Of a stretch of 64,000 nucleotides of DNA, positions 32,947-35,974 are shown one piece after another. Under the pieces are notes generated by a model, which was not told the DNA's origin, ran no database searches, and saw only the letters and a program-made list of their open reading frames with translations. This stretch comes from Escherichia coli (GTDB taxonomy: Bacteria; Pseudomonadota; Gammaproteobacteria; Enterobacterales; Enterobacteriaceae), in NCBI RefSeq assembly GCF_003334315.1, contig NZ_QOWR01000014.1; one strand, written 5' to 3'. The position numbers and the translations under genes were made by a program. Each line of letters starts with the position of its first letter. Positions within the stretch are counted from its first letter, which is position 1.

Positions 32947-33387
32947 ATGGACAAGCAACGCGGTTTTACACTTATCGAACTGATGGTGGTTATTGGCATC
33001 ATTGCCATTTTAAGCGCCATTGGTATTCCCGCTTATCAAAACTACCTGCGCAAAGCCGCACTCACCGACATGCTACAAACCTTTGTGCCTTACCGTACCG
33101 CCGTAGAGTTGTGCGCGCTGGAACATGGTGGATTAGATACCTGCGACGGTGGCAGCAATGGCATTCCCTCGCCTACCACCACCCGCTATGTTTCAGCCAT
33201 GAGTGTGGCAAAGGACGTGGTGTCGCTGACCGGGCAAGAAAGTCTCAATGGGCTAAGCGTCGTCATGACACCGGGTTGGGATAACGCAAACGGCGTCACC
33301 GGCTGGACGCGCAACTGCAATATTCAAAGTGACAGCGCATTGCAGCAAGCCTGCGAAGATGTCTTCCGCTTTGATGACGCCAACTAA
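32947..33387 (+). CDS. ppdD: type IV prepilin-like major pilin
   Basis: 146-aa ORF with prepilin N-terminus MDKQRGFTLIELMVVIGIIAIL. Confidence 0.95.
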   Translation: MDKQRGFTLIELMVVIGIIAILSAIGIPAYQNYLRKAALTDMLQTFVPYRTAVELCALEHGGLDTCDGGSNGIPSPTTTRYVSAMSVAKDVVSLTGQESLNGLSVVMTPGWDNANGVTGWTRNCNIQSDSALQQACEDVFRFDDAN

Positions 33388-33396
33388 GGAGCGGCA

Positions 33397-34782
33397 ATGA
33401 ATATTCCACAGCTCACTGCCCTGTGTCTGCGTTATCATGGAGTCTTGCTGGATGCCAGCGAAGAGGTGGTTCATGTTGCGGTAGTCGATGCACCTTCGCA
33501 TGAGCTACTGGACGCATTGCATTTCGCTACCACCAAACGTATTGAGATCACCTGCTGGACGCGCCAACAAATGGAAGGTCACGCCAGTCGCACACAACAG
33601 ACATTGCCCGTAGCTGTTCAGGAGAAGCATCAGCCCAAAGCAGAGTTGCTAACTCGAACGTTACAATCTGCGCTGGAACAACGCGCGTCTGATATTCATA
33701 TCGAACCAGCGGACAATGCCTACCGCATCCGCTTGCGTATCGACGGCGTATTGCATCCTTTACCGGATGTTTCACCGGATGCCGGAGTCGCATTAACCGC
33801 CAGATTAAAAGTGCTGGGAAACCTGGATATTGCGGAACATCGCCTGCCGCAGGACGGGCAATTCACTGTCGAACTGGCAGGAAACGCCGTCTCATTTCGT
33901 ATTGCGACCTTACCATGTCGGGGTGGTGAAAAGGTGGTATTAAGGTTGTTACAGCAGGTGGGTCAGGCACTGGATGTCAACACGCTTGGAATGCAGCCGT
34001 TACAACTGGCGGACTTTGCTCATGCCTTGCAACAACCACAGGGACTGGTGCTGGTAACTGGCCCTACCGGCAGCGGCAAAACGGTCACGCTTTATAGTGC
34101 CCTGCAAAAGCTGAATACCGCTGACATTAATATTTGTAGCGTCGAAGATCCAGTTGAGATCCCCATAGCCGGACTAAACCAGACGCAAATCCATCCGCGT
34201 GCCGGACTCACCTTTCAGGGCGTTTTGCGTGCGTTATTGCGCCAGGATCCTGACGTCATCATGATCGGAGAGATCCGCGATGGCGAAACAGCAGAGATCG
34301 CTATTAAAGCGGCGCAAACTGGTCACCTGGTGTTGTCTACCCTACACACTAATTCCACCTGCGAAACGCTGGTACGTTTACAGCAAATGGGGGTCGCCCG
34401 CTGGATGCTATCATCGGCGCTTACGCTGGTAATAGCCCAGCGTCTGGTACGCAAACTTTGCCCACATTGTCGCCGGCAGCAAGGGGAGCCCATCCACATT
34501 CCAGACAATGTATGGCCATCGCCGCTGCCCCACTGGCAGGCACCCGGTTGTGTACATTGCTACCACGGTTTTTATGGTCGTACGGCCTTATTTGAAGTTC
34601 TGCCCATAACGCCGGTCATTCGTCAGCTTATTTCCGCTAATACCGACGTTGAATCGCTGGAAACGCACGCACGACAGGCGGGTATGCGTACGCTTTTTGA
34701 AAACGGCTGCCTGGCCGTAGAGCAAGGCTTAACCACCTTTGAAGAGTTAATCCGCGTACTGGGGATGCCGCATGGCGAGTAA
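33397..34782 (+). CDS. hofB: type IV pilus / T2SS assembly ATPase (GspE/PilB family)
   Basis: 461-aa ORF, Walker A GPTGSGKT. Confidence 0.94.
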   Translation: MNIPQLTALCLRYHGVLLDASEEVVHVAVVDAPSHELLDALHFATTKRIEITCWTRQQMEGHASRTQQTLPVAVQEKHQPKAELLTRTLQSALEQRASDIHIEPADNAYRIRLRIDGVLHPLPDVSPDAGVALTARLKVLGNLDIAEHRLPQDGQFTVELAGNAVSFRIATLPCRGGEKVVLRLLQQVGQALDVNTLGMQPLQLADFAHALQQPQGLVLVTGPTGSGKTVTLYSALQKLNTADINICSVEDPVEIPIAGLNQTQIHPRAGLTFQGVLRALLRQDPDVIMIGEIRDGETAEIAIKAAQTGHLVLSTLHTNSTCETLVRLQQMGVARWMLSSALTLVIAQRLVRKLCPHCRRQQGEPIHIPDNVWPSPLPHWQAPGCVHCYHGFYGRTALFEVLPITPVIRQLISANTDVESLETHARQAGMRTLFENGCLAVEQGLTTFEELIRVLGMPHGE

Positions 34783-35974
34783 GCAACTCTGGCGCTGGCA
34801 TGGCATAACCGGCGACGGCAATGCGCAAGATGGGATGCTATGGGCAGAGAGCCGTACTTTACTGCTTATGGCACTACAGCAACAGATGGTTACCCCACTA
34901 AGCCTGAAGCGAATCGCCATCAATTCTGCGCAGTGGCGAGGAGATAAAAGCGCGGAAGTCATTCATCAACTGGCGACGCTACTCAAAGCAGGGTTAACGC
35001 TTTCTGAAGGGCTGGCTCTGCTGGCGGAACAGCATCCCAGTAAGCAATGGCAAGCGTTGCTGCAATCGCTGGCGCACGATCTCGAACAGGGCATTGCTTT
35101 TTCCAATGCCTTATTACCCTGGTCAGAGGTATTTCCGCCGCTCTATCAGGCGATGATCCGCACGGGTGAACTGACCGGTAAGCTGGATGAATGCTGCTTT
35201 GAACTGGCGCGTCAGCAAAAAGCCCAGCGTCAGTTGACCGACAAAGTGAAATCAGCGTTACGTTATCCCATCATCATTTTAGCGATGGCAATCATGGTGG
35301 TTGTGGCAATGCTGCATTTTGTTCTGCCGGAGTTTGCCGCTATCTATAAGACCTTCAACACCCCACTACCGGCACTAACGCAGGGGATCATGACGCTGGC
35401 AGACTTTAGTGGCGAATGGAGCTGGCTGCTGGTGTTGTTCGGCTTTCTGCTGGCGATAGCCAATAAGTTGCTGATGCGCCGACCGACCTGGCTTATAGTG
35501 CGGCAGAAATTGCTGTTACGCATCCCGATTATGGGTTCACTGATGCGGGGACAAAAACTCACGCAGATCTTTACGATTCTGGCGCTGACACAAAGTGCAG
35601 GCATTACTTTTTTACAGGGCGTAGAGAGCGTCAGAGAAACAATGCGCTGCCCGTACTGGGTGCAACTTCTGACACAAATCCAGCACGATATCAGTAACGG
35701 TCAACCCATCTGGCTGGCGCTAAAAAATACCGGTGAGTTTAGCCCGCTCTGTTTGCAATTAGTGAGAACAGGAGAGGCATCCGGCTCTCTGGATCTCATG
35801 TTAGACAACCTCGCCCATCATCATCGGGAAAACACAATGGCGCTGGCGGATAACCTCGCAGCCTTACTGGAACCGGCGTTGCTGATCATAACGGGAGGAA
35901 TTATTGGTACGCTGGTGGTGGCAATGTATCTGCCAATTTTCCATTTAGGCGATGCGATGAGTGGGATGGGATAA
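34772..35974 (+). CDS. hofC: type IV pilus inner-membrane platform protein (GspF/PilC family)
   Basis: 400-aa ORF; overlaps hofB by 11 nt. Confidence 0.94.
   Translation: MASKQLWRWHGITGDGNAQDGMLWAESRTLLLMALQQQMVTPLSLKRIAINSAQWRGDKSAEVIHQLATLLKAGLTLSEGLALLAEQHPSKQWQALLQSLAHDLEQGIAFSNALLPWSEVFPPLYQAMIRTGELTGKLDECCFELARQQKAQRQLTDKVKSALRYPIIILAMAIMVVVAMLHFVLPEFAAIYKTFNTPLPALTQGIMTLADFSGEWSWLLVLFGFLLAIANKLLMRRPTWLIVRQKLLLRIPIMGSLMRGQKLTQIFTILALTQSAGITFLQGVESVRETMRCPYWVQLLTQIQHDISNGQPIWLALKNTGEFSPLCLQLVRTGEASGSLDLMLDNLAHHHRENTMALADNLAALLEPALLIITGGIIGTLVVAMYLPIFHLGDAMSGMG

What the first reader, a model, noticed from the sequence alone, without database searches (positions are those of the whole stretch)
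32947..35974. Cryptic type IV pilus / DNA-uptake-like operon ppdD-hofB-hofC
Prepilin (N-terminal GFTLIELMVV), GspE/PilB-family ATPase and GspF/PilC-family platform protein are tightly coupled (hofB-hofC overlap 11 nt), preceded by a 202-bp leader containing an inverted repeat (ttatccgc...gcggataa, 32757..32782). The operon is known to be silent under laboratory conditions; the inducing signal remains unclear.
Basis: established knowledge. Interest (0 to 1): 0.3.

Follow-up and report, generated by a model that had tools for sequence, protein, structure and literature searches.

The report
E. coli ppdD-hofB-hofC pilus operon
This is the well-known E. coli K-12 ppdD-hofB-hofC operon, which encodes the pilin, motor ATPase and membrane platform of a type IV (competence-type) pilus; it is intact, under purifying selection and already known to be switched on by Sxy plus cAMP-CRP, so the finding is correct but ordinary.

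Summary
The window is E. coli K-12 MG1655, 100% identical over this region. All stated coordinates are correct: ppdD 32947-33387, hofB 33397-34782, hofC 34772-35974, the 11-nt hofB/hofC overlap, the 202-bp nadC-ppdD spacer and the 8-nt inverted repeat. Family assignments pass curated cut-offs, and the K-12 pilin differs at 2 of 140 mature residues from the solved EHEC pilus subunit (PDB 6GV9).

The operon is not decaying. dN/dS against E. albertii is 0.05-0.08, and it is present in 5424 of 5426 complete E. coli genomes.

- **Inverted repeat.** It is a hairpin directly after the nadC stop codon. Other genera carry unrelated hairpins at the same place, so it is most likely the nadC terminator or insulator, not a ppdD control element.
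- **Control element.** It is conserved in position across Enterobacterales and lies inside the fragment that CRP bound in published gel shifts. Published work shows Sxy plus cAMP-CRP induces ppdD about 90-fold. Only the natural trigger for Sxy is unknown.

Other conserved leader boxes, and a roughly 113-nt distance from the CRP-S site to the only conserved sigma70-like core promoter, remain unexplained.

Verdict: already known, low interest.

The parts
32753..32785 (+). It begins 9 nt after the nadC stop codon and is most likely the nadC 3'-end terminator or insulator. It has no U-tract.
   Evidence: -16.9 kcal/mol, z = -3.3. The sequence is not conserved outside Escherichia, but 18 of 20 genera have an unrelated stable hairpin at the same place, several of them with a T-run. 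The terminator scan did not call it.
32800..32821 (.). CRP-S (Sxy-dependent CRP) site TTCTTCGTAACGCCTCGCAAAT, centred at 32810.5. It carries the diagnostic C6 and G17, a perfect right half TCGCA and a weak left half TTCGT.
   Evidence: 2 mismatches to TGCGA-N6-TCGCA. It lies in the middle of the published CRP gel-shift fragment, whose primers map to 32734-32863. A match of at least 8/10 sits at -130 to -139 from the ATG in 19 of 24 Enterobacterales leaders. It is invariant in 7 diverse E. coli including O157.
32835..32841 (.). Conserved CTGCAAC box, 24 nt downstream of the CRP-S centre. Function unknown. Its reverse complement GTTGCAG resembles the CytR half-site GTTGCATT, recalled from memory and not tested.
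32854..32875 (.). Conserved GGAA-N6-TTCC element, which may be a second weak CRP-like site. The right half is TCCCG in K-12 and TCACG or TCACA in Enterobacter-group species. Its centre at 32864.5 is 54 bp from the CRP-S centre. Function unknown.
   Evidence: It forms no significant RNA hairpin on either strand.
32889..32917 (+). Inferred sigma70 core promoter: -35-like TCGCCT (32889-94), a 17-nt spacer, then TG (32909-10) plus -10-like CAAAGT (32912-17). The predicted transcription start is about 32924. It is weak by consensus.
   Evidence: TCGCCn, 17-18 nt, then TGnCAnAnT in Enterobacteriaceae or TATCCT in Brenneria and Dickeya, in 18 leaders, at a fixed 77.5-79.5 nt from the CRP-S centre. 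The consensus scan finds no strong promoter between 32600 and 36200. The start site is not mapped; this is inference.
32933..32938 (+). Shine-Dalgarno AAGGAG, 8 nt before the ppdD ATG.
   Evidence: invariant GGAG in the 16 Enterobacteriaceae leaders.
32947..33387 (+). ppdD: type IVa major prepilin. It has a 6-residue leader, G-1, F+1 and E+5, and disulfides C50-C60 and C118-C130 in mature numbering.
   Evidence: NF007862, 265.6 bits against a cut-off of 138; PDB 6GV9 and 6GMS; 2 substitutions, G84D and A115T. The disulfides and E5 are described.
33397..34782 (+). hofB: PilB/GspE-family assembly ATPase. It has Walker A at residue 222, Asp box at 243, Walker B at 284, His box at 308, and CPHC/CVHC at 355 and 385. 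RefSeq labels it gspE.
   Evidence: NF007755, 823 bits against 617; T2SSE, E = 1e-146, plus a partial MshEN domain.
34772..35974 (+). hofC: PilC/GspF-family inner-membrane platform protein with two T2SSF domains. Its start overlaps the hofB end by 11 nt.
   Evidence: (NF007861, 660.8 bits against 401).
35975..36000 (.). GC-rich hairpin (10-bp core stem, 6-nt loop) that fills most of the 34-nt gap between the convergent hofC and guaC genes. It is probably a shared bidirectional terminator, although it lacks a clear U-tract.
   Evidence: -24 kcal/mol on both strands; z = -4.9 and -7.5; 0 of 200 shuffles fold as well.

Best explanation
This is the chromosomal ppdD-hofB-hofC operon of E. coli K-12. 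It encodes three core parts of a type IVa pilus machine: the major prepilin PpdD, the cytoplasmic hexameric assembly ATPase HofB, and the inner-membrane platform HofC. The three genes are translationally coupled and most likely form one transcription unit, bounded by a hairpin after nadC and a hairpin shared with convergent guaC. The remaining parts are encoded elsewhere in the genome: the prepilin peptidase, the minor pilins, and the HofMNOP alignment complex with the HofQ secretin. Transcription is off in ordinary culture because the core promoter is weak and depends on cAMP-CRP bound, with the co-activator Sxy (TfoX), to a low-affinity CRP-S site at 32800-32821. When Sxy accumulates, PpdD is made, processed and polymerised by HofB/HofC into a fibre through HofQ. 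That fibre supports low-level DNA uptake, and in some pathotypes adhesion. What is shown here: gene identity, motifs, coupling, conservation, purifying selection, and the conserved position of the CRP-S site. What is taken from papers: Sxy/CRP dependence, pilin production, pilus assembly and structure, and hofQ-dependent DNA uptake. What is inferred: the nadC-terminator role of the inverted repeat, the position of the core promoter and transcription start, and the single-transcript structure.
For: - **Identity.** The region is 100% identical to MG1655 and present in 5424 of 5426 complete E. coli genomes. It is annotated ppdD / gspE (hofB) / hofC.
- **Families and structure.** All three NCBIfam equivalogs score above their cut-offs. 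Pfam finds T2SSE in HofB and two T2SSF domains in HofC. The ATPase motifs are intact. PpdD matches the solved EHEC pilus subunit 6GV9 with 2 substitutions.
- **Selection and synteny.** dN/dS against E. albertii is 0.047, 0.076 and 0.060, compared with 0.034 for nadC and 0.011 for guaC. The order nadC-ppdD-hofB-hofC-guaC-coaE is kept across five Enterobacterales families.
- **CRP-S site.** It lies in the middle of the published gel-shift fragment, keeps its position in 19 of 24 leaders, and is invariant within E. coli.
- **Literature.** Sxy induces ppdD about 90-fold, and induction needs CRP and cAMP. PpdD pilin is produced, and there is hofQ-dependent Sxy-inducible DNA uptake. CRP-S promoters work in a Class I-like way through a Sxy-interacting surface on CRP. 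Pili have been assembled from hofBC, hofMNOPQ, ppdAB-ygdB-ppdC and gspO. EHEC makes PpdD pili on minimal casein medium.
- **Promoter strength.** No consensus sigma70 promoter is found between 32600 and 36200, which fits dependence on an activator.
Against: - No transcription start site or operon transcript was available to me, so the promoter position and the single-transcript model are inferences.
- The only conserved sigma70-like core would put the CRP-S site near -113.5. That is farther than the Class I positions quoted for CRP (-62 to -93) and than the -62, -73 and -100 quoted for H. influenzae CRP-S sites.
- In the papers I could read, the direct genetic evidence for DNA uptake concerns hofQ, not ppdD, hofB or hofC. 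Uptake was at the detection limit.
- The hairpin after nadC has no U-tract, so it is not a canonical intrinsic terminator.
Confidence: 0.88

Rival explanations
1. The operon's main natural role is an adhesive or virulence pilus (the 'hemorrhagic coli pilus' of EHEC, or kidney persistence in UPEC) rather than DNA uptake. The competence-type regulation would be ancestral baggage.
For: EHEC O157:H7 is reported to assemble PpdD (HcpA) pili on minimal casein medium. The hofQ secretin contributes to UPEC kidney colonisation. HCP is linked to adherence and cytokine induction in the abstract of PMC2920817. DNA uptake in K-12 is barely detectable.
Against: The CRP-S site is conserved at a fixed position in commensal, plant-associated and environmental Enterobacterales. 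The pilin is unusually well conserved for a surface adhesin, at 81-95% across genera and more conserved than HofB or HofC. The O157 leader differs from K-12 at only a few positions, none in the CRP-S core or the -10 box. The two roles are not mutually exclusive.
Confidence: 0.25
2. The operon is a decaying, non-functional remnant, 'cryptic' in the strict sense.
For: It is silent in laboratory culture. [quoted passage not shown] No pilD gene is next to it.
Against: The reading frames are intact and all catalytic motifs are present. dN/dS is 0.05-0.08, similar to the housekeeping neighbours. It is present in 5424 of 5426 genomes. The K-12 machinery makes processed pilin when Sxy is induced, and surface PpdD pili are reported when the EHEC hcpABC cluster is expressed in K-12.
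Confidence: 0.03
3. The inverted repeat at 32757-32782 is an operator or RNA element that controls ppdD.
For: It lies in the nadC-ppdD spacer and folds better than shuffled sequence. It is kept in E. coli and E. albertii.
Against: It starts 9 nt after the nadC stop, 160 nt or more upstream of the ppdD ATG and upstream of the CRP-S site. The sequence is not conserved beyond Escherichia, whereas the blocks downstream are. Other genera carry unrelated hairpins, REP-like elements or true terminators with T-runs at the same place. The O157 loop carries 2 substitutions with the arms kept, which fits a structural rather than a sequence-specific role.
Confidence: 0.07
4. HofB and HofC are type II secretion components, as the RefSeq product name 'type II secretion system protein GspE' suggests.
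For: RefSeq names HofB gspE. The T2SSE and T2SSF domains are shared with T2SS. According to the papers cited, PpdD can be assembled by the Klebsiella Pul secreton.
Against: HofB fails the curated T2SS GspE equivalog cut-off (457.6 against 630.25) and HofC fails GspF (263.7 against 424). Both pass their own HofB-type and HofC models. They are co-transcribed with a true pilin that forms a solved T4a pilus, and they work with HofMNOPQ and minor pilins.
Confidence: 0.03

Closest known systems
E. coli ppdD-hofB-hofC (hcpABC in EHEC), a member of the Sxy/CRP-S regulon
   Same: It is this locus: 100% nucleotide identity to MG1655, the same annotation, and the published CRP gel-shift primers map inside the leader.
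   Different: Nothing differs in the genes. K-12 PpdD differs from the EHEC protein used for the structure at 2 residues, G84D and A115T in mature numbering.
pilA-pilBCD clusters of Pseudomonas aeruginosa and pilABCD of Haemophilus influenzae (type IVa pilus and competence pilus)
   Same: The same three protein families in the same order (pilin, PilB-type ATPase, PilC-type platform). CRP-S/Sxy control is as in H. influenzae.
   Different: There is no pilD prepilin peptidase after hofC; guaC sits there in the opposite orientation, followed by coaE. HofB is about 100 residues shorter at the N-terminus than PilB: it aligns to positions 160-561 of the 564-position PilB model and keeps only part of an MshEN domain. 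No retraction ATPase is present in the window. HofB and HofC score below the PilB and PilC equivalog cut-offs.
Type II secretion GspE/GspF/GspG
   Same: Homologous ATPase, platform and pilin-like N-terminus.
   Different: Scores fall below the GspE, GspF and GspG cut-offs. PpdD is a full-length T4a pilin with a D-region disulfide and forms a long pilus.
CytR/CRP nucleoprotein promoters (deoP2, cdd): tandem CRP sites about 52-53 bp apart with a CytR site between them
   Same: This is a resemblance only. Two CRP-like elements lie 54 bp apart (centres 32810.5 and 32864.5), with a conserved GTTGCAG-like box midway between them.
   Different: The second element is a poor CRP match in K-12 and only a single CytR-like half-site is present. 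The deoP2 and cdd geometry and the CytR motif are recalled from memory. One search covers only CRP needing CytR at low-affinity sites in the deoC promoter. No experimental link turned up: the two papers that mention both ppdD and CytR draw no connection.

Membership tests
Type IV pilin (class III signal peptide, T4a subclass) | Short basic leader ending in Gly, then Phe+1, Glu+5 and a hydrophobic N-terminal helix. | tested here: met
   MDKQRG|FTLIELMVVIGIIAIL. TIGR02532 scores 35.9 against a cut-off of 16.3, and NF007862 scores 265.6 against 138.
Type IV pilin (class III signal peptide, T4a subclass) | C-terminal disulfide-bonded D-region, and the ability to form a pilus filament. | tested here: met
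   C118 and C130 are present, as are the enterobacterial C50 and C60 (compared). 138 of 140 mature residues are identical to the PDB 6GV9 pilus subunit. Filament formation itself is taken from the deposited structure, not tested here.
PilB/GspE-family secretion ATPase | T2SSE domain with Walker A, Asp box, Walker B, His box and a tetracysteine motif. | tested here: met
   PF00437 E = 1.3e-146. The motifs are at residues 222, 243, 284, 308, 355 and 385. NF007755 scores 823.3 against 617.
PilB (type IV-A pilus assembly ATPase, TIGR02538) and GspE (TIGR02533) equivalogs | Score above the curated equivalog cut-off over the full length. | tested here: not met
   PilB scores 485.8 against 675.65, with only profile positions 160-561 aligned. 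GspE scores 457.6 against 630.25. HofB is therefore a distinct, N-terminally shorter subfamily.
PilC/GspF platform protein | Two T2SSF domains in a polytopic inner-membrane protein. | tested here: met
   PF00482 twice, at residues 64-186 and 269-388. NF007861 scores 660.8 against 401. The GspF equivalog is not met, at 263.7 against 424.
Self-contained T4aP gene cluster (pilin, pilBCD, pilT, pilMNOPQ) | Prepilin peptidase, retraction ATPase, alignment complex and secretin encoded at the locus. | tested here: not met
   The window has no real A24 peptidase motif (the only regex hit is antisense to pdhR), no second prepilin and no second T2SSE ATPase. No pilD follows hofC in any Enterobacterales locus examined. 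hofMNOPQ lies elsewhere in the same genome.
CRP-S (Sxy-dependent) regulon | A 22-bp CRP site with C6 and G17 (core TGCGA-N6-TCGCA) upstream of the first gene. | tested here: met
   The site at 32800-32821 matches the core at 8 of 10 positions and has C6 and G17. It sits at a conserved position in 19 of 24 leaders, where about 0.08 chance matches per leader are expected (my estimate), with a perfect site in Serratia bockelmannii.
CRP-S (Sxy-dependent) regulon | Induction requires both Sxy and cAMP-CRP. | not testable with these tools
   Reported in PMC1635313: 90-fold induction by Sxy, abolished in crp and cyaA backgrounds. Confirmed in PMC3330819 and bioRxiv 10.1101/284836.
Natural-competence DNA-uptake machinery | DNA uptake depends on these genes. 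| not testable with these tools
   Sxy-inducible, hofQ-dependent uptake was detected only with lambda Red help. I found no direct test of ppdD, hofB or hofC in the papers I could read.
   The stem is present (-16.9 kcal/mol), but the tail is UCUCCCCUUCCCC and the scan does not call it. Orthologous positions in Enterobacter, Kluyvera and Yersinia do have a stem plus a T-run.

The most novel reading that the evidence does not exclude
The ppdD promoter may be a composite nucleoprotein promoter rather than a simple Class I CRP-S promoter. The CRP-S site sits at a rigidly conserved 77.5-79.5 nt upstream of the only conserved sigma70-like core, which places it near -113.5. In between lie two further conserved boxes: CTGCAAC, which resembles a CytR half-site, and a GGAA-N6-TTCC or TCAC(G/A) CRP-like element near -60. 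If these boxes bind a second CRP dimer or another regulator, such as a nucleoside-sensing CytR-type protein (recalled from memory as a competence regulator in Vibrio cholerae), they could carry the missing natural signal that explains why the operon is silent in the laboratory.
Probability: 0.15. Interest if true: 0.45.

Novelty: already known. Interest (0 to 1): 0.12.

Why it matters
The operon is part of the long-standing puzzle of why E. coli keeps a complete, selected set of competence-pilus genes yet is not naturally transformable in the laboratory. Nothing in this finding changes that picture.

The gene identities, structure and Sxy/CRP-S control are already published. This re-examination adds three points:
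- **Inverted repeat.** It belongs to the nadC 3' end.
- **Selection.** The operon is under purifying selection as strong as that on its housekeeping neighbours.
- **Leader.** It contains several conserved boxes, at fixed spacing, beyond the known CRP-S site.

Those boxes are cheap targets for reporter mutagenesis if someone wants to look for the natural inducing signal.

Tried and rejected
- **Consensus promoter/terminator scan of 32600-36200.** It found no sigma70-like promoter.
- **Window-wide search for TGCGA-N6-TCGCA with up to 2 mismatches.** It gave 30 hits against 46 expected, so the motif alone is not informative. Only position and conservation make the 32803-32818 hit meaningful.
- **Simple Class I geometry for the CRP-S site (start near 32872).** No -10-like hexamer with conserved A2/T6 exists at 32858-32865 in the 16-genus alignment, so I did not adopt it.
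- **TTGCCA (32908-13) read as a -35 box.** Rejected because the matching -10 would overlap the conserved Shine-Dalgarno sequence.
- **Sigma54, sigmaE and FliA readings of the conserved boxes.** Checked by eye against remembered consensus sequences. None fitted.
- **The GGAA-N6-TTCC region as an RNA hairpin or terminator.** It is not significant on either strand.
- **Primary papers for a mapped start site or mutant data.** Sinha 2009, Sauvonnet 2000 and Palchevskiy & Finkel 2006 are not held. Cameron & Redfield 2006 has no supplementary files held.
- **Literature link between ppdD and CytR.** Only two papers mention both, and neither connects them.
- **The hofM promoter in the same genome.** I looked for shared boxes, found nothing convincing in the 119-bp spacer, and dropped it.
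- **A24 peptidase motif scan of the window.** It gave one hit, antisense to pdhR, which I judged to be chance.
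Full report
**1. Observation**

- ppdD is at 32947-33387 (146 aa, N-terminus MDKQRG|FTLIELMVV).
- hofB is at 33397-34782 (461 aa).
- hofC is at 34772-35974 (400 aa).
- The hofB/hofC overlap is 11 nt. ppdD and hofB are 9 nt apart, with AAGGAG spanning the ppdD stop.
- nadC ends at 32744, so the spacer is 202 bp.
- The inverted repeat TTATCCGC/GCGGATAA is at 32757-64 and 32775-82. It extends to a 33-nt hairpin at 32753-32785; the stretch around it folds at -16.9 kcal/mol, z = -3.3.

**2. Identity**

A 3.5-kb query is 100% identical to E. coli K-12 MG1655. At least 80% of it is found in 5424 of 5426 complete E. coli genomes. RefSeq annotates nadC, ppdD, 'gspE' (which is hofB), hofC and convergent guaC. 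The rest of the window runs from yadC/panBC through the pdh operon, and on the other side through the dcw cell-division cluster to ilvIH.

All three proteins pass the curated NCBIfam equivalog cut-offs for PpdD, HofB-type GspE and HofC. They fall below the cut-offs for canonical PilB, GspE, GspF and PilC.
- **HofB.** Pfam finds a T2SSE domain (E = 1e-146) plus a partial MshEN domain. It carries Walker A, an Asp box, Walker B, a His box and two CxxC motifs.
- **HofC.** Pfam finds two T2SSF domains.
- **PpdD.** It matches the solved EHEC type IV pilus subunit (PDB 6GV9, and NMR structure 6GMS) with two substitutions. It keeps E5, both disulfide pairs, and the E53/H54 residues discussed in bioRxiv 10.1101/2021.04.14.439816.

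**3. Not a decaying remnant**

Nei-Gojobori dN/dS against E. albertii is 0.047 for ppdD, 0.076 for hofB and 0.060 for hofC. The housekeeping neighbours give 0.034 (nadC) and 0.011 (guaC).

The gene order ampD-nadC-ppdD-hofB-hofC-guaC(convergent)-coaE is largely kept in Enterobacteriaceae, Pectobacteriaceae, Yersiniaceae, Erwiniaceae and Hafniaceae. A few loci lack ampD, nadC or guaC in the stretch examined, and none has a prepilin peptidase gene after hofC. The window contains no real peptidase, no second pilin and no second ATPase. hofMNOPQ lies elsewhere in the same genome.

The pilin is more conserved across genera (81-95%) than HofB or HofC (57-91%). This agrees with the statement, attributed to Luna Rico et al. 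2019, that PpdD is highly conserved in Enterobacteriaceae.

**4. The leader**

I extracted the nadC-ppdD spacer from 24 Enterobacterales genomes. I aligned 16 Enterobacteriaceae leaders and scanned all 24.

At the same place, just after the nadC stop, other genera carry unrelated stable hairpins, REP-like elements, or textbook terminators whose T-run runs into the next element. In O157 the loop differs but the arms are kept. The simplest reading is a nadC 3'-end terminator or insulator. This is inferred, because the K-12 version lacks a U-tract.

*The CRP-S site.* The 22-mer TTCTTCGTAACGCCTCGCAAAT (32800-32821) has the CRP-S hallmarks C6 and G17 and a perfect right half-site.
- A match of at least 8/10 to TGCGA-N6-TCGCA lies at -130 to -139 from the ATG in 19 of 24 leaders. 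My estimate of the chance expectation is about 0.08 per leader.
- Serratia bockelmannii has a perfect site.
- The site is invariant in seven diverse E. coli.
- It lies in the middle of the fragment (primers map to 32734-32863) that CRP shifted in Cameron & Redfield 2006.

*Further conserved boxes.* None of these has been tested, and no mapped transcription start was available in the papers I could read.
- CTGCAAC at 32835-41.
- A GGAA-N6-TTCC element at 32854-75, whose right half is TCACG or TCACA in several genera.
- A T-tract.
- A sigma70-like core: TCGCCn, 17-18 nt, then TGnCAnAnT (TATCCT without the TG in Brenneria and Dickeya).

The spacing from the CRP-S centre to the TCGCCn box is fixed at 77.5-79.5 nt in 18 leaders. 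If this core is the promoter, transcription starts near 32924 and the CRP-S site is near -113.5. That is on the same helical face as -61.5 but unusually far away. The middle element would then be near -60.

**5. Regulation and function from the literature**

- **Sxy and CRP.** Sxy induction raises ppdD about 90-fold, and this needs CRP and cAMP. CRP binds the leader fragment weakly (PMC1635313).
- **Pilin and DNA uptake.** Processed PpdD is made on Sxy induction. None of 72 ECOR strains made it in overnight or log-phase culture. Sxy-inducible DNA uptake depends on hofQ but is barely detectable. No natural condition that induces sxy is known (PMC3330819).
- **Activation mechanism.** CRP-S activation is Class I-like and uses a Sxy-interacting surface on CRP. 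sxy is autoregulated through its own CRP-S site (PMC6728893).
- **Pathotypes.** EHEC is reported to make PpdD pili on minimal casein medium, and hofQ contributes to UPEC kidney persistence (PMC2649431).
- **Assembly.** Pilus assembly in E. coli has been engineered with hofBC, hofMNOPQ, ppdAB-ygdB-ppdC and gspO (bioRxiv 10.1101/856302).
- **Plasmid transformation.** ppdD was reported as not needed for spontaneous plasmid transformation on plates (PMC3306417).

**6. Operon ends**

Downstream, a 10-bp GC-rich stem at 35975-36000 (-24 kcal/mol, z = -4.9 and -7.5) fills most of the 34-nt gap between hofC and convergent guaC. No better-than-chance internal terminators or promoters were found. A single ppdD-hofB-hofC transcript is therefore the most economical model, though this is inferred.

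**7. Verdict**

This is the known ppdD-hofB-hofC operon of the Sxy/CRP-S regulon. The statement that the inducing signal is unclear holds only for the natural trigger of Sxy.

Novelty: already known. Interest: low. The only open thread is the unexplained conserved architecture of the leader, described under the novel case.

Noticed in passing
window 35975-36000: A strong GC-rich hairpin (-24 kcal/mol on both strands, no shuffle as stable) fills most of the 34-nt gap between the convergent hofC and guaC genes. It is probably a shared bidirectional terminator, although it lacks a clear U-tract.
   Followed up: partly
window 32835-32841, 32854-32875 and 32877-32893: Conserved leader boxes with no assigned function: CTGCAAC, GGAA-N6-TTCC (TCACG or TCACA in other genera) and TTTTTGCCCCTCGCC. 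They keep fixed spacing to the CRP-S site across genera whose synonymous sites are saturated.
   Followed up: partly
window 32947-33387 compared with 33397-35974: The major pilin PpdD is more conserved across genera (81-95% identity) than the cytoplasmic and membrane proteins HofB and HofC (57-91%). This is the opposite of what is usual for surface-exposed pilins.
   Followed up: partly
window 33397-33610 (HofB residues 1-70): The HofB N-terminus matches only positions 24-86 of the 90-position MshEN domain (E = 3e-5), and HofB is about 100 residues shorter than PilB. From memory, the missing part of MshEN is the region that binds c-di-GMP in MshE, so HofB probably lacks that site. This was not tested.
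   Followed up: no
window 35975-37900 and loci L002-L025: No prepilin peptidase gene follows hofC in any Enterobacterales genome examined. guaC sits there in the opposite orientation, followed by coaE-zapD-yacG. From memory, other gammaproteobacteria have pilBCD-coaE, so pilD appears to have been replaced by guaC in this order.
   Followed up: partly
window 45183-45272 (- strand): An Rfam hit to PssrA ('plasmid-encoded Shigella sRNA A'), 105 bits against a gathering score of 69, lies at the chromosomal ftsA-ftsZ junction. This is an odd place for a family described as plasmid-encoded.
   Followed up: no
window 38870-38947 and 38987-39063 (- strand); 39467-39536 (-); 27482-27595 (+): Two tandem naRNA4 (REP-derived) copies lie between yacG and mutT. 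STnc40 is at the mutT-secA junction. tp2 lies between aceE and pdhR, on the strand opposite to both genes. All score above Rfam gathering thresholds.
   Followed up: no
window 13579-13926: yacC, annotated as a 'YacC family pilotin-like protein', lies about 19 kb from the pilus operon. No link between the two was examined.
   Followed up: no
hit H1, NZ_CP050044.1 (E. coli strain 74-2), 3896819-3901385: In this strain the matched region is split into two pieces and the features under the match include an IS5-like IS903B transposase. This is a natural insertion within the nadC-guaC stretch. The exact insertion point was not determined.
   Followed up: no
L015 (Brenneria roseae), nadC-ppdD spacer: The spacer carries two copies of a repeat of about 50 nt (TTTTTATGGTGGGCAATCCCTGCCCACCACCCTACGGGCCGCCACTAC...), each forming a strong hairpin. 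It looks like a REP- or MITE-like element inserted where K-12 has its single hairpin.
   Followed up: no
window 31809 versus 31851: The longest nadC ORF starts at 31809 (311 aa), but RefSeq annotates the start at 31851 (297 aa). The shorter form aligns over its full length with the orthologues.
   Followed up: no
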